From: an uncultured Candidatus Saccharibacteria bacterium
GTDB taxonomy: Bacteria; Patescibacteriota; Minisyncoccia; Phycocordibacterales; Phycocordibacteraceae
Length of the DNA: 64,000 nt
Reading direction: 5' to 3'
Assembly: GCA_964550425.1 (NCBI GenBank)
Contig: CAZJZB010000003.1
Location: 6 to 64,005 of the forward strand
The translations under genes were made by a program, and so were the position numbers. Under the pieces are notes generated by a model. That model saw only the letters and a list, made by a program, of their open reading frames with translations. It ran no database searches and was not told the origin of the DNA. Every line of letters begins with the position of its first letter. The first letter of the stretch is position 1. Positions 2,119-47,419 of this stretch are shown here, piece after piece.

Positions 2119-2143
2119 ATGAAAGACCTCAGAGGTCTTTCAT
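2119..2143. repeat. REP-like 25-bp palindrome (atgaaagacctcagaggtctttcat) overlapping the transposase stop codon
   Basis: Perfect palindrome. Same unit recurs at 2649-2673 and 2837-2861; related unit at 47034-47081. Confidence 0.85.
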
Positions 2144-2838
2144 CTTTCAAGAATTAAGTCAGTAGTTAACGCTGCTTCCGAATCCTTCAGATATTCTTTG
2201 ATTGCTTCCTGATAATTTTCAAATGCATTTCCGAATAAATCTTTGGTAAGAATGGAAGGGAAATTTTTCTTTCCACAATAGTCGAGATAACTGCTCCAGC
2301 GATACTCACCCAGATACGCCAATGTCTCTTTTGCATTTTTTATGGTTCCCTTATCTCGTTCGCGCCACTTGGTTGCTCCTGTAAGATAATCGAGCGGATT
2401 GAGATGTAGATAGTGGAGGATGTATAAGAAATGCGGTTCGTTCTCAATAAGAATTTTCTTTGTTTTTCCTTGGAAGAGATGCCCGTGTCGTTTATATCGT
2501 TCATTATAATATTTCGCGTAGCCGACGTTTACCTTCATCATGAATTTTGCCAGCCCGCCTTCAATGAGTTCAGAAATGAGTAAATGATAATGATCTTTCA
2601 TGAGACACCATCCGTGAATCTCTACCAATTTCTCTCGGACTCGCCGGAATGAAAGGCCTCTGAGGTCTTTCATTCCGGAATCAAACAGTCGGTGTAAATT
2701 GTCTGCCGATCTTGTGTCGTTAAATTCATACAGATTATGAATGAAACGCGCATAGTCCTGTGAATCTAGAAATAGGTCACGCCCCTCGATACTGTGATTG
2801 AGTAGGTGATACAGCTCCACTTGTTGAGTATAACCCAT
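2140..2838 (-). CDS. IS200/Y1-type HUH transposase (REP-associated tyrosine transposase-like, COG1943 family)
   Basis: HGWCLMKDHYHLLI (HUH motif), RHGHLFQGK..., YILHYLHLNPLD (catalytic Tyr region). AT-rich relative to neighbours. Flanked by REP palindromes that overlap both start and stop codons. Start set at MGYTQQ. Confidence 0.75.
   Translation of the reverse strand: MGYTQQVELYHLLNHSIEGRDLFLDSQDYARFIHNLYEFNDTRSADNLHRLFDSGMKDLRGLSFRRVREKLVEIHGWCLMKDHYHLLISELIEGGLAKFMMKVNVGYAKYYNERYKRHGHLFQGKTKKILIENEPHFLYILHYLHLNPLDYLTGATKWRERDKGTIKNAKETLAYLGEYRWSSYLDYCGKKNFPSILTKDLFGNAFENYQEAIKEYLKDSEAALTTDLILER
2644..2678. repeat. REP-like palindrome inserted in-frame inside the transposase CDS (encodes GMKDLRGLSFRR)
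   Basis: ccggaatgaaaggcctctgaggtctttcattccgg; one mismatch to the flanking copies. The reading frame is maintained. Confidence 0.8.
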
Positions 2839-5638: not shown

Positions 5639-5920
5639 ATGCATCTGAAAAAAGAGGAACGACAGAGAGTTGAATTGTTCCTCGGTCATTCACGTATAGG
5701 GCGGAATCTTGATCTGCTCTGCGAATGCATCCTTTGGGTCCTGCTCATTCTCACTGGACTCGTAGAAGGATTGTTCGGCTGGCTCAGCTATATTCCCAAT
5801 GAGAGGAAAGTAGAGCTAAAAAAGTATATCCTCCGTTGGTTGCAGTATGCGGAGTGTGAGGTCAAGAAGATAAAGACCCGCTTTCACAACTATTTTCACA
5901 AAGATCCCACCCCTCTGTAG
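5639..5920 (+). CDS. hypothetical small membrane protein
   Basis: SD gaaaggaggg 8 nt upstream of the ATG; hydrophobic core; the ORF ends inside a terminator hairpin. Confidence 0.35.
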   Translation: MHLKKEERQRVELFLGHSRIGRNLDLLCECILWVLLILTGLVEGLFGWLSYIPNERKVELKKYILRWLQYAECEVKKIKTRFHNYFHKDPTPL

Positions 5921-5958
5921 ACAGGCAATCACGCCGTCTACAAGGGGTGGTCTTTTTT
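5909..5958 (+). terminator. rho-independent terminator
   Basis: ccaccccTCTGTAGAC...GTCTACAaggggtgg stem followed by tctttttt. Confidence 0.6.
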
Positions 5959-6101
5959 ATTTTCTCTAGGCATAGTGTCCGAGAACATATGATTTTCCTC
6001 GCCAAAAGTTGTCCACTACGCGCTCATACTTCTCTCAAGTCGTTCCATGGGCAGTGATACACTATACGCATAGGGTGATTACATCCGTTTAGCTTTACAT
6101 T

Positions 6102-6626
6102 ATGCATATGAATCTTCATCGTTTTTTCTCGCAGGTCGCCGTACTCATAGGTGCCGTTCTGTTCTCGATAGGTCTTCAGGCCCTTGCTTTCACGCAGCCA
6201 TCGGCATCTCCGCCAAACGCCGACGCGTACGCGCCGCTCAATGCCGGTCCAAGTGTGCAAAAAAAGTCCGGAGGCCTCTTTCTTAACACGGGCGGCGCGT
6301 CCAATGGTCTCATCGTGCAGTTCGGCAATGTCGGCATCGGGACATTGACTCCCGTAGCCAAATTGTCGGTCGCTGGCGGCGTGCAAATAGGGGATGATAC
6401 CTCTGCGTGCACCGAGGCAAATTATGGAACATTGAGATCGAATAATAATTCACTCCAGTATTGCGGAAGCATTACTTCAACAACGCAATCCGGAGGGGCC
6501 TGCAACACAGGGTGTCCCGGCGGCACGGCGCTCTACCCCATTTCAAGCTGGGGAACTTGTATTACGTACATGTGTCAACGAACAACCCAGACATATAGAT
6601 GGGGAACTGTTACTATGAATCCATAA
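6102..6626 (+). CDS. secreted hypothetical protein (GNVGIGTLTP motif, Cys-rich C-terminus)
   Basis: N-terminal signal peptide/TM, then a GNVGIGT motif seen in fibre-like surface proteins. No enzymatic motif. Confidence 0.5.
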   Translation: MHMNLHRFFSQVAVLIGAVLFSIGLQALAFTQPSASPPNADAYAPLNAGPSVQKKSGGLFLNTGGASNGLIVQFGNVGIGTLTPVAKLSVAGGVQIGDDTSACTEANYGTLRSNNNSLQYCGSITSTTQSGGACNTGCPGGTALYPISSWGTCITYMCQRTTQTYRWGTVTMNP

Positions 6627-6635
6627 TCCTGACGA

Positions 6636-6986
6636 ATGAAAATGGACACCACACCCCCGCAACAGGAAATGACAAATCAAGCGGACTCTTCCTACGAAGA
6701 AGCGGATAACGGCTTACGAAGACCGCGTTCCTTCAAGGTATGGTGGTTGTTGATTCTTGCGCTTATCGCCCTATGGCTCTGGATTAGTTGGTTCTATGGC
6801 CGATCTCCTTTCTCGTCGCAGACCACAATTTCACCGGAAGAAACAACGCAAGAAATCCCGCAAAGCGTGCTCGATTCGCTCACTGCGCCAACCAATGCTC
6901 CCGAGAGCGATATTCCGCAAAGCGTGCTCGATTCGCTCACCGCGCCCACCGATTCTCCTTCAGCACCCGACTTGAATACCCCATAA
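6636..6986 (+). CDS. membrane-anchored protein with tandem [13 protein letters not shown] repeats
   Basis: One TM helix ([18 protein letters not shown]). Two near-identical ~48-bp tandem repeats at about 6853-6960. Confidence 0.5.
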
Positions 6987-6993
6987 CCTAATC

Positions 6994-8253
6994 ATGTCGT
7001 CTGCACTCATCGCTCGCCCGTTCCACATATCAGTATGTATCGCAGTGCTCGCGGTCGCATATATGTTCGGGAGTTCAATGGCGCCCTATAGAGCGGCAGC
7101 GGCTAGTCCCATGCCCATTACCGGCTGGGCATGGTCTTCCGCTTCTCCCGGTGTGGGTTGGATTAGTTTCAGTGGACCGGGATATGGCGTGTTTGAAGAT
7201 ACAACAACCGGAGCATTTTCCGGCTACGCATGGTCCTCTAATATCGGTTGGATTAGTTTTGCCGCGTCTGATGCAACGCATCCGGCGCCGAACATTGCTT
7301 CCGGTACCGGGAAAATAACCGGTTGGGTGCGTGCATGCGCGGCATTTGCCAACAAAAACGCTTGCAGCGGCGCGCTTGACCCGAAGAGCGGCGGCTGGGA
7401 TGGCTGGATTGCCCTTTCGGGCGTTGCCGCTGACGGTTCGTCCTATGGCATCGTACAGAATGCCGCATGCGCGTGGACCGGCTACGCATGGGGCTCTGAT
7501 GCTATAGGCGCAATAAATGTGAGCGGCTCAACGGCTGACGGCTCTTCGTACGGCGTTGTGGGCGTTGATCCGACTGTCTGCGCCTCTGTAAACGGCGGCT
7601 GGTCTACTTTTTCAAGTTGTTCGGTCAGTTGCGGAGGGGGCACCCAAACAAGAAGTTGTACGAACCCTTCTCCCACAAACGGGGGAGCCGCGTGCACCGG
7701 CCCGACAAGCCAGAGTTGCAATACGCAAGCATGCGCGCCAATCGCTACACTTTTTGCAAACCCACATACTATTGACAACGGTCAATCCTCAACGCTGATT
7801 TGGAGTTCCACGAACGCAACTTCCTGTACGTCGGCAGGCGGCTTCTCCACGGGCGGCGCCACCTCCGGCAGCGCTTCAACGGGAGTGCTTACGTCCACTC
7901 AGAATTATCAAATCAATTGTACCGGTCCCGGCGGTTCCACCGATTCGAACATCGCAACGGTGAAAGTTCTTTTCCCCACTGTCTCAATAAATGCCGTACC
8001 GGATCGCGTGGCGAATGGTGGCTCGACAACCCTGTCATGGAGCGCTGTCGACGCAAGTTCCTGCACCATCACAAAGAACGGTACGATGTGGCGAACGCTT
8101 ACCGCCCCCGATTCGCGAACCATTTCCGGTTCCGCTAGCGATACGGTCAACGCCCAGACCACCTACATCATTTCTTGCACGAACGATACGAGTACGAGCG
8201 CAGCAACCGATACGCAAATCGTGAACGTGGCGGGGGACTTCCAGGAATTCTAG
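6994..8253 (+). CDS. secreted protein with W/G-rich repeats, a thrombospondin type-1 (TSP1) repeat and two Ig-like ~90-aa repeats
   Basis: Signal peptide; GWxWSS/GWISF repeats; [45 protein letters not shown] matches the TSP1 consensus; two paralogous C-terminal repeats (…[14 protein letters not shown]… and …[15 protein letters not shown]…). Confidence 0.6.
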
Positions 8254-28362: not shown

Positions 28363-30750
28363 ATGTCAAAAACCGCAAAAGTTTCCGTTCAGATAAAGGA
28401 GGTGAAAGATCTTTCCGTCAGCAAGACGGAGTCGCCGATTTCAAAAGAAACGCGCCGTTACCGCGATATGATCCCGCAGATAGAGAAACGCGACGGACGA
28501 TTGGTGCCATTCGATTTCGATAAGATCGCCGCCGCCGTGTGGAAGGCGCTCGCCGCGACAGAAGAGGGCGATCAGGATGATGCGACTCTCATCACGCATC
28601 AAGTGGCGGGCGAGCTCGGACGATTTGCAAAAAAATACAAGAATTTCCTTCCCACTGTTGAAGGCATTCAGGACTCGGTCGAGAAATATCTCATTTTGAA
28701 TGATTATGTGAAGACCGCGAAGGCGTATATTCTGTATCGCGACAAGCGCGCCCAGCTGCGCGCCTCTCATATTGAGATCCCGGAGCATGTGCGGAAACTT
28801 GCCGAAGAAAGTAAGAAATATTTTGAAGGTAACGCGCTCGGCGAGTTCGTGTACTTGCGCACGTATGCGAAATGGATTCCTGAAGAGGGGCGTCGCGAGA
28901 CGTGGGTGGAGACGGTAGATCGCTATATGAGTTTTATGCGTGAGAATCTCGGAGACAAACTTACTGAAAAAGAATATGCCGAAGTGCGCATGGGTATTCT
29001 GAAACAAGAAGTGATGCCATCAATGCGTCTTATGCAGTTTTCAGGCGAAGCGGCGCGCCGCTGCAATGCCTGTGCGTATAACTGCACCTTTGTCGCACCC
29101 GTGAGGATAGAGGACTTTGCCGAGATCATGTACCTCTCAATGCAGGGATGCGGTGTCGGGTTTGCGGTGGAGAGTCAGAACGTGGAACAACTCCCGCAAA
29201 TCATGAAGCAAACCGGACAGAAGTTACCTATCCATACTATTCTTGATTCCAAGGAAGGTTGGTGCGATGCTCTGACGCTCGGGCTCAAGACCTGGTATGC
29301 CGGTAAAGACATCATTTTCGATTTCTCAGAAATTCGTCCGGCGGGCGCGCGTCTCAAAACAATGGGCGGAAAGGCAAGCGGTCCCGAAGCACTCAAGAAC
29401 TTGCTTGCCTTTGCACGGGAGCGCGTGATTCGGCGCCAGGGGCGGCGTATGCGCACAATCGACGTACACGATGTCATTTGTAAGATTGGCGAGTGTGTGG
29501 TCGCGGGCGGGGTGCGGCGCACCGCGATGATATCGCTTTCCGACCTCGACGACGTGGAGATGCGCGACGCCAAGAAAGGCCAGTTCTATATGACCGACCC
29601 TCATCGTTCGGTCGCGAACAACTCCGCGGTCTATGAGGTGCAGCCAACGAATGCCGAACTCATGGACGAGTGGGTCGCGCTTATGAAAAGCGGAAGCGGC
29701 GAGCGAGGCATCTTCAATCGCGGATCACTCGCGAAGACCTTTCCGAAACGTCGGGAGGATTATTTTAAGAAAATCGGTTTCATTGGGGAAGACGGTTTCG
29801 TGCATGGGTCCATCGGCACGAACCCGTGTGCTGAAATTATTCTGCAATCAAAGCAATTCTGCAATCTTTCGGAGGTCATAGCGCGTGCGAATGATACGGA
29901 AGCATCACTCTTGAAGAAGACGCGTCTCGCAGCTATTCTCGGCACGTACCAATCAACGCTCACAAAGTTCGGCTACATCTCCAAAGAATGGACTGATCAT
30001 TGTAAAGAGGAACGACTCCTCGGTGTTTCGGTCACGGGGCAGTGGGATTCACCAGTGGCGCGACAGCCGGAAGTGATGCGCAAGGTCCGTGATATGGCGA
30101 TACAGACGAACACAACCTATGCGAAACGTTTCGGCGTGGAACGGTCTATGGCGGTTACCGCCGTGAAGCCCTCGGGCACGGTCTCCCAGACATTCAATTG
30201 CGCTTCAGGTATTCACCCGCGCCACGCACCCTACTACGTTCGCCGCGTACGCATCAGCGCGACCGATTCGCTTTTCAAAATGATGCGCGATCAAGGTGTT
30301 CCGTATTATCCGGAGGTGGGGCAGTCAATGGAAGAGGCGAACACTTTTGTTCTTGAGTTCCCGGTAAAAGCACCTGACCATTCAAAAGAAGCGCGATTTA
30401 AAGACGATCTCTCGGCAATCGACCAACTTGAGTATTGGAAGCAAGTGAAGATTAACCTTACCGAGCACAATCCCTCGGCGACTATCTCTGTAAGCGAAAA
30501 TGAATGGATTGGTGTCGTTGATTGGATTCAGAAAAACTGGGATATCATTGGTGGGCTCTCATTTCTCCCCCGTTCTGACCACGTATACCGCCTCGCGCCT
30601 TACGAGACGATTACGAAAGAGGAATATGAGGCACGCATATCCCGTTTCCCTGAAGTGGATTACTCAAACCTTATTGCCTATGAGCGTCAGGATGAATCGG
30701 ATATGAAGAGGGAACTCGCCTGCGCCGGCGGGACTTGTGAAATAGTATAA
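28363..30750 (+). CDS. nrdJ: ribonucleotide reductase, class II (adenosylcobalamin-dependent), with N-terminal ATP-cone
   Basis: ATP-cone (RDGRLVPFDFDKIAAAVWKA), active-site NPCAEI, C-terminal Cys pair (CAGGTCE); ~796 aa, monomeric class II architecture. Confidence 0.8.
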   Translation: MSKTAKVSVQIKEVKDLSVSKTESPISKETRRYRDMIPQIEKRDGRLVPFDFDKIAAAVWKALAATEEGDQDDATLITHQVAGELGRFAKKYKNFLPTVEGIQDSVEKYLILNDYVKTAKAYILYRDKRAQLRASHIEIPEHVRKLAEESKKYFEGNALGEFVYLRTYAKWIPEEGRRETWVETVDRYMSFMRENLGDKLTEKEYAEVRMGILKQEVMPSMRLMQFSGEAARRCNACAYNCTFVAPVRIEDFAEIMYLSMQGCGVGFAVESQNVEQLPQIMKQTGQKLPIHTILDSKEGWCDALTLGLKTWYAGKDIIFDFSEIRPAGARLKTMGGKASGPEALKNLLAFARERVIRRQGRRMRTIDVHDVICKIGECVVAGGVRRTAMISLSDLDDVEMRDAKKGQFYMTDPHRSVANNSAVYEVQPTNAELMDEWVALMKSGSGERGIFNRGSLAKTFPKRREDYFKKIGFIGEDGFVHGSIGTNPCAEIILQSKQFCNLSEVIARANDTEASLLKKTRLAAILGTYQSTLTKFGYISKEWTDHCKEERLLGVSVTGQWDSPVARQPEVMRKVRDMAIQTNTTYAKRFGVERSMAVTAVKPSGTVSQTFNCASGIHPRHAPYYVRRVRISATDSLFKMMRDQGVPYYPEVGQSMEEANTFVLEFPVKAPDHSKEARFKDDLSAIDQLEYWKQVKINLTEHNPSATISVSENEWIGVVDWIQKNWDIIGGLSFLPRSDHVYRLAPYETITKEEYEARISRFPEVDYSNLIAYERQDESDMKRELACAGGTCEIV

Positions 30751-30778
30751 AATCATTTCCGCCCCTTCGTTCAAGCAA

Positions 30779-30806
30779 AAACCCACGCAGGAGCGTGGGT
30801 TTTTGC
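30779..30806. terminator. bidirectional rho-independent terminator (for nrdJ on + and rnpB on -)
   Basis: aaaaacccacgc-agga-gcgtgggtttttg; A-run and T-run on both sides. Confidence 0.7.
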
Positions 30807-30812
30807 ATTTTT

Positions 30813-31400
30813 CAGACCGAGCCGATAAGCCGAATTCTGTGCCGATTCTGCCCACCGGAGGTGGCTACAGAATCGAGCATCCCGAGTCCAGCGAGGGACT
30901 GGCCCCTCACTTTGTTCGGAACGCTCAATTTATGCAACTGCCTGCGGCAGGCAAAATCGGTGATGATCATTTATCTGGGACGTTGATTACTCAGCGCCTC
31001 AAGCGGCACCCCGCCAGCGCAAAGCGCTGGCGATACGGCCTTGCATGCGGGTAAGGATTTGTTCGTTGCACCCCGAAAGTTACCTTCCGGATTCGCCCCA
31101 TGAGATAGTCGCTTGCGCGACATCTCACGGGGCGCCTTCCCACTTTCGTTCGAAGGCGTCTCTGTAGGCACCTCTATCCTCGCGGACGACGGGCGTTACC
31201 CGCTACCTGTTTGTCAATTCTGCCCACCGGAGGTGGTTGCAGAATCAAGCATCCCGAGTATTTTGCGAGGGATTGACCCCTCACTTCGTTCGGGACGCTC
31301 AATTTTGCAGCTGCCTGCGGCAGGCAAAATTGGCGCATGTTCGGACTTTCCTACCCGCCTGTTCTTGGAGAACAGGCGGGTCGATCGCCCAGCTCGGTCC
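30813..31400 (-). ncRNA. rnpB: RNase P RNA (bacterial type), unusually long (~590 nt) with an internal duplicated ~125-nt module
   Basis: Minus-strand 3' end ACAGAAUUCGGCUUAUCGGCUCGGUCUG matches the bacterial consensus ACAGAAnCCGGCUUAUCGG. The 5' P4 strand AGGAAAGUCCGAAC (31339-31352) pairs with UUCGGCUU while keeping the bulged U (compensatory GG>AA/CC>UU). P1 is GGACCGAGCU/GGCUCGGUCUG. P3 hairpin at 31363-31392. P8-like CCGGAAGGUAACUUUCGG at 31073-31090. GUGCAAC motif present. Confidence 0.7.
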
Positions 31401-31440
31401 GCGTGCACTATATCACAATATATAGTGTGGATAGAATATC

Positions 31441-31470
31441 TGGACAGCACTGCCGATAAGGTATACTGAA
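31441..31470 (+). promoter_or_regulatory. putative sigma70-type promoter for the downstream membrane-protein gene
   Basis: tggaca (-35) … tatact (-10) about 35 nt upstream of the ATG at 31508. Confidence 0.4.
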
Positions 31471-31507
31471 CGGTATTACTACTTGAATAACATCAACCGA
31501 ATCAACC

Positions 31508-33904
31508 ATGCCTCCAGAACATCAAACAGTCGCTCCTCTCGATTCCTTTCGGGGCAAGAAGCCGCGCCGCTCGCTCGAGACCATAAGTATTTGGGCGCTC
31601 CTCGCCACTCTTATTGTTGCCGTTTTTATTTTTATTCCGTCCGCAGCCGTCCCATTCACAACGACTAAAACATTCGTGCTTGCCACCGGTGCGCTCATCA
31701 CGATCGCACTCTATATTCTCGCGCGTCTCGGGCGTGGCAATGTCATCTTCCCGCCTCTCATGCTTGTTGGTGCGCTCTGTCTGCCCGTGCTCGCATATAT
31801 TCTCTCGGCGACATTTTCCGGAGTATCGTTCACCAACGCTCTCTGGGGAACGGCGATTGAACCGGACACACTCGGCTTTATACTCATCGCGACTTGTCTC
31901 GGCGTCTTGACGACGCTCATGCTGAGGCGCTCCGAACACTATCGATCCTTCCTCCGCGCGGGCTTTTCCGTGTTCGCCGCCATCGCTGTTGTTGAGGCGC
32001 TCGTCGTCATCATTGGACAATTCGCACCGAACACGATTTCACCGGCGTTTTCTATTATTGGTTCCTTTGACGATCTCGCGTTTCTACTCGGGCTCGGTAT
32101 CATCGGTATTCTCATCACCTTTCGATTTCTCGAGCTCTCGCAGCGCGCGCGTAACACGTTTAGCGTTGTTGGCGTTATAGCGCTCGTTTTGCTTGCGATT
32201 GCAAATTCCTCGCTTGTGTGGATTCTGGTCGCACTTGTTTCACTCGGTCTCTTTGTTGAAGCGGTTATGCAGCGCGGGTCAAAGAACGCCGACACCGATC
32301 TCGATGATGTCGCCGTTATGGACGAAACGCCGCTTGAGGCGGATAGGAACAGTCATTCGCTCGTCATGCCGCTCTTCGTGCTTGCCGTCTCACTCTTCTT
32401 CCTCATCGGCGGCACACTCGGCAGCGCTTTGGCGAATGCGCTCAACGTGAACGTCCTCACTGTTCGTCCTTCGTGGCAGTCGACCCTCGCGGTTGGCCAG
32501 CAGACGTACGTCACATCGCCGGTTTTTGGTACCGGTCCCGGCTCCTTCGGAGCTGAGTGGCTTAAGTATCGTGACGCGTCCTTGAACTCAACTGTCTTCT
32601 GGAATGTGGATTTCTCTTCCGGTATCGGGTTCATTCCGACCTCGTTCGTGACCACCGGAATTCTCGGAGCCCTTGCGTGGATCGGGCTTCTGTTGCTCTT
32701 TATTGTGTTCGGCTTGCGTATGCTTATCCAGCGCGCGCCGCAGAATGCATTTATCCGGTATGTCGCGATATTCTCGTTTATCGCTTCGCTCTATCTCTTC
32801 ACGGTCGCGATCTTCGGGCTGCCCAATACGGTCATTCTCGCCCTCACATTCGTCTTCGCCGGTCTCTTCGTCTCGACGACGCGTTTCGCCGCAGAGAGTG
32901 AACAATGGGGTATCATCTTCTCGCACAGCCCGCGGATAGGATTCGTCATAGTGTTCTCTCTCACGATCCTTCTGCTTGCGTCGGTCGTTGCCGCTTACTC
33001 GCTCGTTGGGCGTTACATTGCCACGACGGAACTCGTGAACGCGAACACCGCATTCTCCGCCGGTAATCTTGAGAGCGCCGATACGTCAGCACGGAATTCA
33101 ATTTCCTTCGCGCCGAGTGCGGTCGCCTATCAGATTCAGGCAGGAATTGCAGGCGCTCGCCTGGATAGAATAATCGCTTCCACGACAATGCCGACAGCTC
33201 TCGCGCAGCAAGCATTTCAAACGGCGCTCTCGGGGGGCATCAATGCCGCACTGACTGCGACACGTCTCGCTCCTTCTAATTATCAGAATTGGCTCGTACT
33301 GGGGAACCTTTATGCCAAAGCGGTTCCGCTTTCGGTTTCGGGTGCCTACGATAGCGCCAAGACCGCATACGAGAAGGCACAAGCCCTGAACCCGACGAAT
33401 CCCCAAATCCCTTACATTCTTGCGCAACTGAACATCGCGAACAGGAATATAAAGGCAGCCAATGACAACCTTAAGGCCGCCATTACGCTCAAGCAGGATT
33501 ACACGACCGCCATCTTCCTCCTTTCGCAACTCGAGGTTCAAGACGGTAATGTGAAAGACGCACTTGCCTCCGCTCTCGCGGCCGCCTACTTCACCCCAAA
33601 TGATCCGAACATTCTCTTCCAAGTTGGTATTTTGAGCGCGGCGGAAAATGATTTACCGGGAGCCATTAACGCGCTCTCGGCGGCAGTCGCAGCGAATCCG
33701 CAATTCGCGAATGCGCGCTACTTCCTCTCGGCGGTTTATGCGAAGCGGGGCGATATGCGCAATGCACTCGCACAAATGCAGGCGATCGCAGCACTCTCGA
33801 GCGAAAACGCGGCGGCGGTGGTGACGCAGCTTGCGGCACTTGAAGCGGGCAAGAATCCATTCCCCGCGAATCTTCTCTCTGTTTCTCCGGCACCCGTGAA
33901 ATAG
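31508..33904 (+). CDS. polytopic membrane protein (O-antigen-ligase/Wzy-like hydrophobic core) with C-terminal TPR repeats
   Basis: At least 10 predicted TM helices followed by ~250 aa of TPR-like repeats (…YQNWLVLGNLYAKA…ARYFLSAVYAKRGD…). Confidence 0.55.
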   Translation: MPPEHQTVAPLDSFRGKKPRRSLETISIWALLATLIVAVFIFIPSAAVPFTTTKTFVLATGALITIALYILARLGRGNVIFPPLMLVGALCLPVLAYILSATFSGVSFTNALWGTAIEPDTLGFILIATCLGVLTTLMLRRSEHYRSFLRAGFSVFAAIAVVEALVVIIGQFAPNTISPAFSIIGSFDDLAFLLGLGIIGILITFRFLELSQRARNTFSVVGVIALVLLAIANSSLVWILVALVSLGLFVEAVMQRGSKNADTDLDDVAVMDETPLEADRNSHSLVMPLFVLAVSLFFLIGGTLGSALANALNVNVLTVRPSWQSTLAVGQQTYVTSPVFGTGPGSFGAEWLKYRDASLNSTVFWNVDFSSGIGFIPTSFVTTGILGALAWIGLLLLFIVFGLRMLIQRAPQNAFIRYVAIFSFIASLYLFTVAIFGLPNTVILALTFVFAGLFVSTTRFAAESEQWGIIFSHSPRIGFVIVFSLTILLLASVVAAYSLVGRYIATTELVNANTAFSAGNLESADTSARNSISFAPSAVAYQIQAGIAGARLDRIIASTTMPTALAQQAFQTALSGGINAALTATRLAPSNYQNWLVLGNLYAKAVPLSVSGAYDSAKTAYEKAQALNPTNPQIPYILAQLNIANRNIKAANDNLKAAITLKQDYTTAIFLLSQLEVQDGNVKDALASALAAAYFTPNDPNILFQVGILSAAENDLPGAINALSAAVAANPQFANARYFLSAVYAKRGDMRNALAQMQAIAALSSENAAAVVTQLAALEAGKNPFPANLLSVSPAPVK

Positions 33905-37491: not shown

Positions 37492-37833
37492 ATGCGCAAG
37501 GAGCAATGGCGACAAGGAGTCCTCATCAGCATCCTTTTGCTCGCCGCATTCTGGCTCCTGTCGCTTATTATAGGACTCGTCGGGAAGGCGAGAGTGGCAG
37601 TTGGAGAAGCGCATAATGCCCAAGGGCAATATCAGGCGCTTGAGGAGAGGAAAGCGATATTGGAAGGGAATCTTGCCACGCTCGCCACGGAACGTGGACA
37701 GGATGCAGCCACTCGGACAGCTTTTGGGGTTGCGCGGCCGGGAGAAGAGGTTATCGTAGTGGTACCGCCCGATTCGAAGATTCCGACGACGACACCATCC
37801 TGGTGGCAGCAGATATTGGATTGGTTCCAGTAG
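37492..37833 (+). CDS. FtsB/DivIC-like septum-formation initiator (putative)
   Basis: Single TM followed by a short coiled coil (…AHNAQGQYQALEERKAILEGNLATLA…); the stop abuts tRNA-Gly. Confidence 0.4.
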   Translation: MRKEQWRQGVLISILLLAAFWLLSLIIGLVGKARVAVGEAHNAQGQYQALEERKAILEGNLATLATERGQDAATRTAFGVARPGEEVIVVVPPDSKIPTTTPSWWQQILDWFQ

Positions 37834-37903
37834 CGGAATTGGTTTAGTGGTAGAACAGTTGCTTCCCAAGCAACGGGCGGGAGTTCGATTCTCCCATTCC
37901 GCA
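37833..37903 (+). tRNA. tRNA-Gly (anticodon CCC)
   Basis: Manual cloverleaf: acceptor gcggaat/attccgc, anticodon loop ttcccaa, T-loop ttcgatt. Confidence 0.8.
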
Positions 37904-37960
37904 CTACTTCGCTCGATTAGGAAATCGAGCTACGAAGTGCACAGCACAGATGTTTCTGGG
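37904..37960 (+). repeat. tRNA-trailer hairpin element, copy 1 (12-bp stem with UA bulge, AGGA loop, conserved 3' tail)
   Basis: ctacttcgctcGATTaggaAATCgagctacgaagtgcacagcacagatgtttct; paralog at 38489-38545. Confidence 0.7.
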
Positions 37961-38474: not shown

Positions 38475-38545
38475 TCCTGAGAGGGGCACTACTTCGCTCC
38501 GTTCGGAAACGGAGCTACGAAGTGCAAGCACCAAATGTGTTAGAA
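38475..38545 (+). repeat. 14-nt direct duplicate of the tRNA-Arg 3' end (tcctgagaggggca) followed by tRNA-trailer hairpin element copy 2
   Basis: 38475-38488 is identical to 38311-38324. Then ctacttcgctcCGTTcggaAACGgagctacgaagtgcaagcaccaaatgtgtta, which differs from copy 1 by compensatory stem changes. Confidence 0.7.
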
Positions 38546-46510: not shown

Positions 46511-47419
46511 TTATTGCACAAACCGCACATAGATGCCGGCAGGAACAACGCGCTCGGAAGAGGATTCCTTGATATGAAGTTCGCCGCATTCGCTGTTGGC
46601 CTCGCCAAAGGTGCCTTCCACTGCTTGTGCAAAAGAGCGCGGCGCATAGCCAGCCGCATAGCCGTTTATAAGGAAAAAAGAACCATGAGTTTTTGAGAGC
46701 AATTCATTGAGCGTGGCAAGAAGCGTATGTAAATCTTCTTCGATCTTCCATACCTCGCCTTTGGCGCCCCGGCCGAAGGCCGGCGGGTCAAGAATAATAC
46801 CGTCGTATTTTGCGCCCCGTCGTACCTCGCGTTTTACAAAAGAGAGAGCATCATCCAGCACCCAACGAATGCTATCCTCAGGGATATGCGAAAGCCGCGC
46901 GTTTTCATGCGCCCAGTCCAGGGATTGTTTGGATGCGTCCACATGCGTGACGAATGCGCCGGCGTGCGCAGCAACGACGGATGCAATACCGGTGTAGCCG
47001 AAGAGATTCAGCACCTGGATGTTCGACCTTGGAGGTCCTTCATCTGATGAACGACCTCCAAGGTCTTTCATTCGTTCGTGAAGCCACTGCCAATTGGGCG
47101 CTTGCTCCGGAAACATGCCGGTATGCTTGAACCCCGTGAGCCGTACGATGAATCGGGCGGCATTCCAGGAAAGTTCCCATGCTTCCGGCACCGACTTTTT
47201 CATATTCCAGGAACCTTTCTTCTCGCGGAAGGTGAATTCGGCATGCGCCTTTTCCCATAGTTCCGGGCGCATTTTTCCCCACAACGCTTGCGTCTCCGGC
47301 CGCGTGATAATGATGTCGCCGAAACGTTCTAATTTCATAGAGTCGCCCGAATCAAGGAGCTCGTAATCGCTCCATGGGAGGGATACAAGATGATTGTCGC
47401 AATTTAATTTTTTTGTCAT
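46511..47419 (-). CDS. class I SAM-dependent rRNA methyltransferase (RlmI/RlmK-like) carrying an in-frame palindromic-element insertion
   Basis: NLFGYTGIASVVAAHAGA (SAM motif I) … DGIILDPPAFGRG (motif IV). The insert encodes …ERMKDLGGRSSDEGPPRSNIQ… from 47034-47081. Confidence 0.7.
   Translation of the reverse strand: MTKKLNCDNHLVSLPWSDYELLDSGDSMKLERFGDIIITRPETQALWGKMRPELWEKAHAEFTFREKKGSWNMKKSVPEAWELSWNAARFIVRLTGFKHTGMFPEQAPNWQWLHERMKDLGGRSSDEGPPRSNIQVLNLFGYTGIASVVAAHAGAFVTHVDASKQSLDWAHENARLSHIPEDSIRWVLDDALSFVKREVRRGAKYDGIILDPPAFGRGAKGEVWKIEEDLHTLLATLNELLSKTHGSFFLINGYAAGYAPRSFAQAVEGTFGEANSECGELHIKESSSERVVPAGIYVRFVQ
47034..47081. repeat. 48-bp inverted-repeat element related to the REP family, in-frame within the methyltransferase gene
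   Basis: gaccttggaggtccttcat-ctg-atgaacgacctccaaggtc-tttcat; shares the gacct..aggtctttcat core with the REP copies at 2119/2649/2837. Confidence 0.75.

What the first reader, a model, noticed from the sequence alone, without database searches (positions are those of the whole stretch)
30813..31400. RNase P RNA hidden on the minus strand, unusually long, with a near-identical ~125-nt internal duplicated module
The ~700-bp non-coding gap between nrdJ and the Wzy/TPR gene encodes RNase P RNA on the minus strand.

Evidence for rnpB:
- The 3' end reads ACAGAAUUCGGCUUAUCGGCUCGGUCUG, matching the universal bacterial ACAGAAnCCGGCUUAUCGG.
- The P4 5' strand AGGAAAGUCCGAAC pairs with UUCGGCUU while keeping the diagnostic bulged U. 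The pairing is preserved by compensatory GG>AA / CC>UU substitutions.
- The P1 ends pair as GGACCGAGCU / GGCUCGGUCUG.
- A 10-bp P3 hairpin and a P8-like GGUAAC-loop hairpin are present.

What is unusual:
- The distance between the two P4 strands is ~480 nt, against ~280 nt in E. coli.
- The excess is explained by two ~80%-identical copies of a ~125-nt structured module (plus-strand 30841-30960 and 31207-31335). Each has an attctg-cccacc-gga-ggtgg-(c/t)t(a/g)-cagaat hairpin, a gaggg/ccctc stem with a variable loop, and a ctgcc/ggcag hairpin.
- One copy directly follows the P4 5' strand; the other directly precedes the P4 3' strand.
- Copy B retains a perfect 9-bp outer stem that is degraded in copy A, suggesting a recent internal duplication or insertion of a repeat element into a peripheral domain of the ribozyme.
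- The two ORFs predicted here (30803-31054 and 31113-31469) read the repeat in different frames and are therefore spurious.
Basis: partly seen in the sequence, partly recalled or inferred. Interest (0 to 1): 0.8.

Follow-up and report, generated by a model that had tools for sequence, protein, structure and literature searches.

The report
Oversized RNase P RNA with duplicated helix
This is the gene for the RNA enzyme that trims tRNA precursors (RNase P RNA) in a tiny-genome CPR bacterium; it is about 230 bases longer than usual because one 120-base hairpin arm occurs twice, and related genomes show that such hairpins are repeatedly copied between sites of this gene.

Summary
Window 30813-31400 (minus strand) is a full-length bacterial type A RNase P RNA gene (Rfam RF00010). 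It scores 77 bits, E 1.7e-23, below the curated cut-off of 100 only because of two ~120-nt insertions. Insertion-free relatives score 103-126 bits.

The insertions (31214-31333 and 30842-30960) are direct repeats, about 88% identical. Each is a nested palindrome. Energetics and the RNAalifold consensus favour one long hairpin.

- **3' copy:** it occupies the P19 position, between the P2 3' and P4 3' strands.
- **5' copy:** it lies between P5 and P7, the position of P5.1 in type B RNAs.

The duplication is neither private nor recent. The P19 module occurs in at least ten related CPR metagenome sequences. The 5' copy, with identical junctions, occurs in two further genomes, and a collapsed remnant occurs in a third.

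The module was never found outside rnpB, so I found no evidence for a dispersed mobile element.

Other hairpin "cassettes" are likewise shared among P3, J5/7, P9, P16 and P19 in sister genomes. This points to recurrent copy-and-paste within the gene.

The function of the arms is unknown. I infer peripheral, non-catalytic helices. Excision by RNase III is the main rival.

The parts
30813..31400 (-). rnpB, the RNase P RNA gene (bacterial type A core), 588 nt from G31400 to G30813
   Evidence: RF00010 full-length match at 30810-31400, 77.1 bits, E 1.7e-23. Orthologous genes in the same nrdJ-rnpB-TPR-MurJ-LepA synteny.
31407..31415 (-). Extended -10-like promoter element TGATATAGT, 6 nt upstream of the first P1 base
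   Evidence: Read from the sequence. L001 has TGGTATAAT at the same distance. The consensus scan found no -35/-10 pair, so this is inference.
31381..31400 (-). P1 and P2 5' strands
   Evidence: cmscan alignment.
31354..31380 (-). P3 hairpin CCCGCCUGUUCUCCAAGAACAGGCGGG
   Evidence: 13-nt perfect inverted repeat (I4) and cmscan alignment. The same 27-mer forms P19 in L095.
31334..31353 (-). P4 5' strand (AGGAAAGUCCGAAC) and P5 5' strand (CAUGC)
   Evidence: cmscan alignment. 75-95% identical to relatives.
31214..31333 (-). 5' copy of the 120-nt nested-palindrome module, in J5/7 between P5 and P7 (the position of P5.1 in type B RNAs)
   Evidence: Direct repeat. nhmmer 142 bits. Long hairpin of -67.8 kcal/mol, z -8.0. 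Placement inferred from L002, L064 and L124, where a short hairpin sits at this point.
31159..31213 (-). P7, P8 (GCGGG-UAACG-CCCGU), P9, P10 and P11 5' strands, and J11/12 ACAGAGA
   Evidence: Sequence plus homology to relatives. 67-95% identical. cmscan mis-aligned P8 onto the module hairpin.
31069..31158 (-). P12 (31133-31158), P13 (31096-31132) and P14 (31069-31095) of the specificity domain
   Evidence: cmscan alignment.
30998..31068 (-). P11-P5 3' strands, J5/15 and the P15/P16 hairpin (31012-31032) with L15 GGGGU. P17 and P6 are absent.
   Evidence: cmscan alignment shows P17 deleted. Sequence.
30961..30997 (-). P18 (30979-30997), J18/2 CCAGAUAAAUG and the P2 3' strand
   Evidence: cmscan alignment.
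30842..30960 (-). 3' copy of the module, an expanded P19 helix between the P2 3' and P4 3' strands
   Evidence: Direct repeat. nhmmer 132 bits. Hairpin of -76.9 kcal/mol, z -9.3. The same site holds hairpins of 18-130 nt in relatives. 82-86% identical to L001, L064 and L002.
30813..30841 (-). P4 3' strand (ACAGAAUUCGGCUUA) and P1 3' strand
   Evidence: cmscan alignment. The pattern is shared by more than 120 metagenome loci.
30775..30806 (.). 14-bp GC-rich hairpin flanked by A and U runs: a bidirectional intrinsic terminator for convergent nrdJ (+) and rnpB (-)
   Evidence: (I1).
30803..31054 (+). Spurious 83-aa ORF antisense to rnpB
   Evidence: No Pfam family. It overlaps the conserved RNA gene.
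31113..31469 (+). Spurious 118-aa ORF antisense to rnpB
   Evidence: No Pfam family. It overlaps the conserved RNA gene and its promoter.

Best explanation
**What it is.** The locus is the single-copy rnpB gene of a CPR (Patescibacteria) bacterium. It is apparently transcribed from an extended -10 promoter to a bidirectional terminator as one RNA of about 590 nt.

**The core.** Without the two modules the RNA is a 357-nt type A RNase P RNA with P1-P5, P7-P14, P15/16 and P18, and no P6/P17. By homology it is the ribozyme that removes 5' leaders from pre-tRNA, with P4 as the catalytic centre.

**The two arms.**
- Both are copies of one 120-nt nested-palindrome helix.
- The older copy is an overgrown P19 helix between the P2 3' and P4 3' strands. 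It is inherited within a sub-clade of these bacteria.
- The second copy was made from P19 by an intragenic copy event (ectopic gene conversion or template switching) into the junction between P5 and P7. Sister genomes carry a short hairpin at that site.
- The copy event happened in an ancestor shared with at least three other sampled genomes. The copy has since been kept, collapsed or replaced in different lineages.

**How the arms behave (inferred, not shown).** They stay in the mature RNA as long peripheral hairpins projecting from either side of the P4/P5 core. They play no direct catalytic role and are dispensable in the long run.

**Shown versus inferred.** Shown: gene identity, anatomy, duplication, phylogenetic distribution and absence outside rnpB. 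Inferred: transcript continuity, the fold in vivo, the copy mechanism and the function of the arms.
For: **Identity.**
- Full-length RF00010 match, E 1.7e-23.
- Insertion-free relatives pass the gathering score at 103-126 bits; insertion-bearing ones score 60-90 bits.
- Synteny is conserved.
- Lui et al. 2021 (PMC8172020) report that CPR RNase P RNAs fall below Rfam cut-offs and have large helix extensions.

**Anatomy.**
- The site between J18/2 and the P4 3' strand holds 10 nt, 18-61 nt hairpins, or 89-130 nt hairpins across about 100 relatives.
- The P5-P7 site holds short hairpins in L002, L064, L124 and L126.

**Fold.**
- The extended hairpin is best by energy in every copy and is the RNAalifold consensus: 42 pairs, 9 compensated.
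- 94.6% of cells pair, against about 40% in slid controls.
- The collapsed remnant in L128 keeps exactly the outer 16 bp of that hairpin.

**History.**
- The P19 module is present in L001, L002, L064, L113, L124 and L128, and in divergent form in L004 and L120.
- The 5' copy has identical junctions in the window, L001 and L129.
- The two 5' copies have identical 5' arms (0 of 39 differences), and the two 3' copies share a derived extra U.
- rnpB core identity tracks protein phylogeny, so the gene itself is inherited vertically.

**Not dispersed.**

**Recurrent copying of other hairpins within rnpB.**
Against: - No transcript data: the RNA might be processed at the long helices.
- The module is as conserved as the catalytic core (82-86%, against 24-67% for P3 and P13). 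That is odd for a merely tolerated peripheral arm, yet it has been lost or collapsed in the closest relatives (L123, L128).
- The 5' copy has a patchy distribution. It is present in genomes whose TPR protein is 68% and 87% identical to the window's, and absent at 90%, 86% and 74-79%. This requires several independent losses, or else lateral exchange.
- In the full-length RNA, pairing between the two copies is 3.8 kcal/mol more stable than local folding. The duplication therefore creates a misfolding hazard that an ordinary expansion would not.
Confidence: 0.65

Rival explanations
1. The module is a selfish palindromic insertion, like the intervening sequences of rRNA or a miniature inverted-repeat element. 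It targets permissive loops of rnpB, spreads between lineages, and is cut out of the transcript by RNase III. The result would be a functional RNase P RNA made of two or three base-paired fragments.
For: - It is a very long, nearly perfect hairpin, the kind of substrate RNase III cleaves (established knowledge of rRNA intervening sequences).
- Its distribution is patchy relative to the protein phylogeny.
- Copies in genomes whose TPR proteins are only 68% identical are highly similar.
- Collapsed remnants exist.
- Unrelated long hairpins sit at the same sites in other genomes (L092, L028, L127).
- A GIY-YIG ORF lies next to the triply inserted rnpB of L127.
Against: - No copy lies outside rnpB in the 64-kb window, in 875 kb of related loci, among 185,579 genomes (20-mer scan), or in the viral, phage and plasmid collections.
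- There are no target-site duplications and no associated transposase.
- Module divergence scales with core divergence: L004 and L120 are the most distant in both. This fits vertical descent.
- No RNase III signature was found in the window, which is uninformative for the rest of the genome.
Confidence: 0.2
2. The two identical arms are functional. They would bind the same protein (or a dimer), or mediate RNA-RNA association, replacing tertiary contacts lost with P6/P17. This would parallel what P5.1 and P15.1 do in type B RNAs.
For: - Sequence conservation equals that of the core.
- The A(A/G)CGAAGU internal-loop strand is conserved across copies.
- P6/P17 are absent.
- Both arms flank the P4/P5 stack.
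- P5.1 has a tertiary role in type B RNAs (PMC11779636).
Against: - The distal 88-90 nt were deleted in L128 (5' site) and L123 (P19), and the arm is absent in most relatives.
- No complementary partner loop was identified.
- The nested palindrome itself can explain slow sequence change.
Confidence: 0.12
3. The duplication is an assembly artefact, or the region encodes the two predicted proteins rather than an RNA.
For: - Repeats can mislead metagenome assemblers.
- Gene callers predict ORFs here.
Against: - The same two-copy architecture is in an independent MAG (L001). The 5' copy is in a third assembly from another site (L129).
- The copies differ at about 12% of positions, so they are not collapsed reads.
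- The ORFs have no family match and overlap a full-length ribozyme match.
- L131 is the same assembly as the window and does not count as independent.
Confidence: 0.02

Closest known systems
Bacterial RNase P RNA, type A (Rfam RF00010; E. coli M1 RNA, Thermotoga maritima)
   Same: Same core and order of helices: P1-P5, P7-P14, P15/16, P18, and the universally conserved P4 strands and J11/12, J5/15 and J18/2 motifs. The module-deleted length is 357 nt.
   Different: - 588 nt long.
- No P17 or P6.
- A 119-nt P19 and an extra 120-nt helix in J5/7.
- P4 carries the lineage-specific GG>AA / CC>UU compensated pair.
- Scores below the family's gathering threshold (77 vs 100 bits).
Diverged CPR RNase P RNAs described by Lui, Nielsen & Arkin 2021 (PMC8172020)
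   Same: They are missed at default Rfam thresholds, have large helix extensions and lack P16/P17-type elements.
   Different: That paper reports extensions (for example P15) and missing helices. The text I read does not mention one module present twice or hairpins shared among sites.
P19 and P5.1 of type B RNase P RNA (Bacillus)
   Same: The two modules occupy the same positions. P19 lies between the P2 3' and P4 3' strands. P5.1 lies between P5 and P7, where it replaces P6/P16/P17 (PMC2858038 Table 3; PMC11779636).
   Different: - The type B helices are short, unrelated to each other in sequence, and P5.1 kisses P15.1.
- Here the two helices are paralogous, about 50 bp long, there is no P15.1, and the rest of the RNA is type A.
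Intervening sequences of bacterial 23S/16S rRNA and rRNA expansion segments
   Same: Long hairpins inserted at the tips or junctions of permissive helices of an essential structured RNA, with patchy distribution among relatives.
   Different: The intervening sequences are known to be excised by RNase III; nothing is known here. They are not normally copies of a helix of the same RNA.

Membership tests
Bacterial RNase P RNA class A (RF00010) | Covariance-model score at or above the curated gathering score (100 bits) | tested here: not met
   77.1 bits, E 1.7e-23, full-length model match. The shortfall comes from the two ~120-nt insertions: insertion-free relatives with the same core score 103-126 bits.
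Bacterial RNase P RNA class A (RF00010) | Conserved P4 pseudoknot strands (AGGAAAGUCCG ... ACAGAAnnCGGCUUA) nested inside P1/P2 | tested here: met
   Both strands are present and aligned to the model. The GG>AA / CC>UU change is compensated. The same pair of strands occurs in 106 of the related loci.
Bacterial RNase P RNA class A (RF00010) | Specificity domain with P7-P12 plus the type A helices P13 and P14 | tested here: met
   P10-P14 are aligned by cmscan. P8 was identified by homology after correcting the mis-alignment.
Bacterial RNase P RNA class A (RF00010) | P15-P16-P17 arm with the P6 pseudoknot, and the L15 GGU that binds the tRNA 3' CCA | tested here: inconclusive
   P15/P16 and a GGGGU in L15 are present. 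P17, and hence P6, are deleted in the alignment. Such losses are reported as common in CPR (PMC8172020).
Bacterial RNase P RNA class A (RF00010) | Catalyses 5' maturation of pre-tRNA | not testable with these tools
   Needs an in vitro cleavage assay.
Bacterial RNase P RNA class B (RF00011) | P5.1, P10.1, P15.1 and P19 present; P13, P14, P16 and P17 absent | tested here: not met
   Helices are present at the P5.1 and P19 positions, but P13 and P14 are also present, and no P10.1 or P15.1 was found. The best clan member is class A.
P19 helix of RNase P RNA | Hairpin between the 3' strand of P2 and the 3' strand of P4 | tested here: met
   The 3' module lies between AUGAUCAUCA (J18/2, P2 3') and CACAGAAUUCGG. 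Relatives carry hairpins of 18-130 nt at this point.
Dispersed palindromic mobile element (MITE / REP-like) or rRNA-type intervening sequence | Multiple copies at unrelated genomic sites; target-site duplication; for intervening sequences, excision from the transcript | tested here: not met
   All copies lie inside rnpB. The junctions show no duplicated target. Excision is not testable here.

The most novel reading that the evidence does not exclude
In this CPR clade, the peripheral helices of the RNase P ribozyme may evolve by copy-and-paste of whole hairpin 'cassettes' among a small set of permissive sites (P3, J5/7, P9, P16, P19), and possibly between lineages. The 120-nt double module would be the largest example. 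This would be a so far undescribed mode of growth for an essential structured RNA. A further possibility is that the long arms are excised, leaving a naturally split bacterial RNase P RNA.
Probability: 0.3. Interest if true: 0.7.

Novelty: new variant of a known kind. Interest (0 to 1): 0.55.

Why it matters
**Annotation.** RNase P RNA is used as a universal marker of genome completeness. This gene is invisible at default Rfam thresholds, and gene callers place two bogus ORFs on it.

**Biology.**
- A genome-reduced bacterium maintains a ribozyme about 60% larger than needed, with two paralogous ~50-bp arms beside the catalytic helix.
- The family of related genes offers a natural series: full, collapsed, replaced and absent arms. 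Such a series can be used to ask how expansion segments of essential RNAs arise, what they cost (a misfolding trap between the copies), and whether they are kept, processed or lost.
- The shared hairpin cassettes suggest a simple, testable mechanism of RNA structural innovation: intragenic gene conversion between hairpins.

Tried and rejected
- **Rfam at gathering thresholds on the whole window** found no RNase P. Only the permissive scan of the sub-region did.
- **cmscan placement of the 5' insertion.** cmscan put it inside P8/P9 by aligning P8 to the module's CUGCC/GGCAG hairpin. I rejected this after comparison with L002, L064 and L124.
- **Mobile-element idea.** Window pattern searches, an nhmmer profile over all loci, one genome-contig scan, one viral-contig scan, and the plasmid and phage BLAST collections were all negative outside rnpB.
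- **'Recent private duplication'** is rejected because L001, L129 and L128 share it.
- **'Independent duplications in the window and L001'** is disfavoured. The junctions are identical and the two 5' copies are each other's closest relatives.
- **'Whole rnpB transferred between the window and L001'** is rejected, because core identity follows protein identity.
- **Covariation could not separate the extended hairpin from three tandem hairpins:** 94.6% vs 95.9% paired, 6 vs 10 compensated pairs. Two hand-edited structure strings were unbalanced.
- **Fixed sequence anchors failed for many divergent genes.** My 'post-P5' segment was wrong for a standard high-GC type A lineage (L003, L010, L014), where the hits are P3 to P12. 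Those cases are not used.
- **L131** turned out to be the window's own assembly, so it is not independent.
- **Motif scan for RNase III and RnpA in the window** found nothing.

Full report

Yes. A gathering-threshold Rfam scan of the window reports only seven tRNAs. A permissive scan of 30700-31520 gives a full-length match to bacterial RNase P RNA class A (RF00010) at 30810-31400 on the minus strand. It scores 77.1 bits against a gathering score of 100, E 1.7e-23, covering model positions 1-367.

The conserved P4 strands, P1, P3, P10-P14, P15/16 and P18 are all aligned. Two blocks of about 105-123 nt are left as insertions.

The insertions are direct repeats. Three gapless blocks are about 90% identical at 372-374 nt spacing. 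The gapped alignment is 88% identical. Module 20-mers occur exactly twice in 64 kb, against 0.02 expected.

The exact limits are 31214-31333 and 30842-30960. An extended -10-like TGATATAGT lies 6 nt upstream of G31400 (a similar element sits in L001). A 14-bp terminator hairpin follows the 3' end and is shared with the convergent nrdJ.

**2. Anatomy**

With both modules removed the RNA is 357 nt, the normal type A size.

- P5 is CAUGC/GCAUG. The 5' module lies after the P5 5' strand and before P7/P8 (GCGGG-UAACG-CCCGU).
- cmscan mis-aligned P8 onto a module hairpin in the window. In L002 it places the corresponding short hairpin in J5/7.
- The 3' module lies between the P2 3' strand and the P4 3' strand.
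- These are the positions of P5.1 and P19 in established nomenclature. P19 occurs in type A and type B RNAs. P5.1 occurs only in type B, where it replaces P6/P16/P17 (PMC2858038 Table 3; PMC11779636). P17 and P6 are absent here.

**3. What the module is**

Each copy alone folds into one long irregular hairpin: -67.8 and -76.9 kcal/mol, z -8.0 and -9.3. The sequence is a nested palindrome. Its 5' and 3' arms are each locally palindromic and about 70% alike.

| Fold | Evidence |
|---|---|
| S1, one extended hairpin | 94.6% of cells paired, 6 compensated pairs; most stable by ~6 kcal/mol over S2 and ~7-12 over S3 in every copy; it is the RNAalifold consensus with 42 pairs, 9 compensated |
| S2, cruciform | intermediate in energy |

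Slid controls pair at about 40%.

The strongest argument for a closing stem joining the two ends of the module is natural. L128 carries at the 5' site CCGAUUUUGCCUGCCG-AAC-CGGUGGGCAGAAUCGG. That is the outer 16 bp of S1 with the inner ~88 nt deleted. L123 has a 33-nt P19 made of the same basal sequence.

**4. Relatives**

- **Genome scan.** A 20-mer from the module hits only two of 185,579 genomes. Both are CPR MAGs, and both hits lie inside rnpB.
- **Metagenome scan.** A scan with the lineage-specific P4 3' strand returned 120 loci. In 106 of them both P4 strands could be located, and the genes are 303-769 nt long.
- **Rfam check.** Rfam confirms these are rnpB. Insertion-free genes score 103-126 bits and insertion-bearing ones 60-90 bits.
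- **The P19 site is variable.** It holds 10 nt (no helix), simple hairpins of 18-61 nt, or hairpins of 89-130 nt. These include unrelated AU-rich hairpins in L092 and L028.
- **Where the module is found.** An nhmmer profile finds it only at P19 in L002, L064, L113, L124 and L128 and, in divergent form, in L004 and L120. At both sites it is found only in the window and L001. L129 has the 5' copy, but its contig ends before P19.
- **Taxonomy.** The flanking TPR protein has homologs named Kaiserbacteria, Paceibacterota, Minisyncoccota and Patescibacteria. L001 and L002 are titled Saccharibacteria. The organism is CPR; finer placement is uncertain.

**5. History**

By flanking proteins the order of relatedness to the window is as follows:

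| Locus | TPR identity to the window | NrdJ identity |
|---|---|---|
| L123 | 90% | 94% |
| L128, L129 | 87% | not determined |
| L124 | 86% | not determined |
| L125 | 79% | 89% |
| L126, L127, L043 | ~75% | 87-89% |
| L001 | 68% | 86% |
| L064 | 66% | 83% |
| L002 | 63% | 85% |

rnpB core identity follows the same order, so the gene is vertically inherited.

The 5' copy has identical junctions (AUGCG|CCAAUUUU ... |CAAACAGGUAG, or CAAGCAGGUAG in L129) in the window, L001, L129 and the L128 remnant. The 5' arms of the window and L001 5' copies are identical (0 of 39 differences). Their 3' copies share a derived extra U.

A single origin of the 5' copy from P19, followed by collapse (L128) or replacement (L123, L124), is therefore the simplest reading. 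It requires several losses, and lateral exchange by recombination is not excluded.

The apex of the window's 3' copy carries the signature of the 5' copies rather than that of other P19 modules. This hints at gene conversion between the two copies.

**6. Constraint**

Between the window and L001, L064 and L002, the P19 module is 82-86% identical. That is comparable to the P4/P5 and P7-P11 core (67-95%). It is far above P3 (30-67%), P13 (24-38%) or P16 (19-81%). Yet the arm is dispensable over evolutionary time (L123, L128, and most relatives).

The nested palindrome, in which most bases have two alternative partners, may itself slow change. A sequence-specific function is the alternative.

**7. 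Broader pattern**

Copying of hairpins within rnpB is recurrent.

- Nine of 105 distinct genes have exact internal direct repeats of at least 12 nt, against 3 of 530 shuffles.
- Verified cases:
  - L064: P3 equals the J5/7 hairpin.
  - L086: the same hairpin at P3, J5/7 and P16.
  - L123: the same family at J5/7, P9 and P16.
  - L126: that family at P19.
  - L120: P3 equals the distal part of its P19.
  - L127: three ~100-nt insertions with shared ends at J5/7, P16 and P19.
  - The window's own P3 27-mer is the P19 of L095.
- None of these cassettes occurs outside rnpB in about 875 kb.

**8. Mechanism and rivals**

I commit to the following reading. This is an active type A RNase P RNA whose P19 helix grew to ~120 nt in an ancestor. 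That helix was then copied into J5/7 by intragenic gene conversion or template switching. The arms are peripheral and non-catalytic.

The main rival is a selfish, intervening-sequence-like hairpin that RNase III excises, which would give a split ribozyme. It fits the long perfect helices and the patchy distribution. It lacks any copy outside rnpB, any target duplication and any transcript evidence.

A protein-binding or tertiary role fits the conservation but not the repeated losses.

In the full-length RNA, pairing between the two copies is 3.8 kcal/mol more stable than local folding: 95 inter-copy pairs in the minimum-free-energy structure. That pairing would be topologically at odds with P2 and P5. 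The duplication therefore creates a folding hazard, which co-transcriptional folding presumably avoids.

**9. Novelty**

That CPR RNase P RNAs are diverged, are missed by default thresholds and have large helix extensions is published (PMC8172020). I found no description of the following in the literature searched:
- one ~120-nt helix present twice, at the P5.1-equivalent and P19 positions;
- hairpin cassettes shared among sites and genomes.

I rate this a new variant of a known kind.

Noticed in passing
L064 (rnpB 5659-6142 -), L086 (2081-2430 -), L123 (2410-2894 -), L126 (2594-2979 -), L095 (3720-4157 +), L120 (981-1601 +): Short hairpin 'cassettes' are shared among different structural sites of rnpB, within and between genomes. 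CCGCCCUUUCUUCAGGAAAGAGCGG is at P3 and J5/7 of L064. The CACACUGCAnAAGUGUG family is at P3, J5/7 and P16 of L086, at J5/7, P9 and P16 of L123, and at P19 of L126. The window's P3 27-mer is the P19 of L095. L120's P3 repeats 31 nt of its P19.
   Followed up: partly
L127 2009-2819: This rnpB is ~609 nt, with three ~100-nt insertions sharing the ends CCCCGUGAGAUAA...UUAUCUCAUGGGG at J5/7, P16 and P19. An 80-aa GIY-YIG nuclease-domain ORF (Pfam E 3.7e-13) lies immediately upstream of the gene. L130's P3 has the same end motif.
   Followed up: partly
L092 (rnpB ~766 nt) and L028: Inside L092's rnpB there are tandem arrays of 8-nt units, (UGUUAUAU)n and (CAAUAAAG)n. Both loci also have an unrelated AU-rich 112-117-nt hairpin at the P19 site.
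   Followed up: no
L002 ~7060-7130, L004, L120 (P15-P17 region): There are large AT-rich insertions (~100-190 nt) in the P16/P17 arm of several module-bearing rnpB genes. This is a second, independent expansion site.
   Followed up: no
window 2119-2148, 2649-2678, 2837-2866, 47047-47076: A small dispersed palindromic repeat, ATGAAAGACCTCTGAGGTCTTTCAT, occurs four times in the window. It looks like a terminator or a REP-like element and is unrelated to the module.
   Followed up: no
window 37901-37941 and 38486-38526: A 41-nt hairpin (GCACTACTTCGCTCGATTAGGAAATCGAGCTACGAAGTGCA) occurs twice at 88% identity. The first copy starts at the 3' end of the tRNA at 37833-37903.
   Followed up: no
window 6852-6958: A tandem 50-nt direct repeat, 88% identical with 57-nt spacing. 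It is probably an in-frame repeat within a coding region.
   Followed up: no
L001, L002 record titles vs P0008-P0099 names: Taxonomic labels disagree. The two closest genome records are titled Candidatus Saccharibacteria. Homologs of the adjacent TPR protein at 70-75% identity are named Kaiserbacteria, Paceibacterota, Minisyncoccota or Parcubacteria.
   Followed up: partly
L003, L010, L014, L088, L118, L083: In a separate, standard-looking high-GC type A lineage that shares the same P4 variant, the P3 hairpin resembles the 5' part of P12 (CGCCCGCCUUCGCGCCUUCGGCGC) within and across genomes.
   Followed up: no
window 30775-30806: One hairpin flanked by A and U runs appears to terminate both the convergent nrdJ (+ strand) and rnpB (- strand).
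   Followed up: partly
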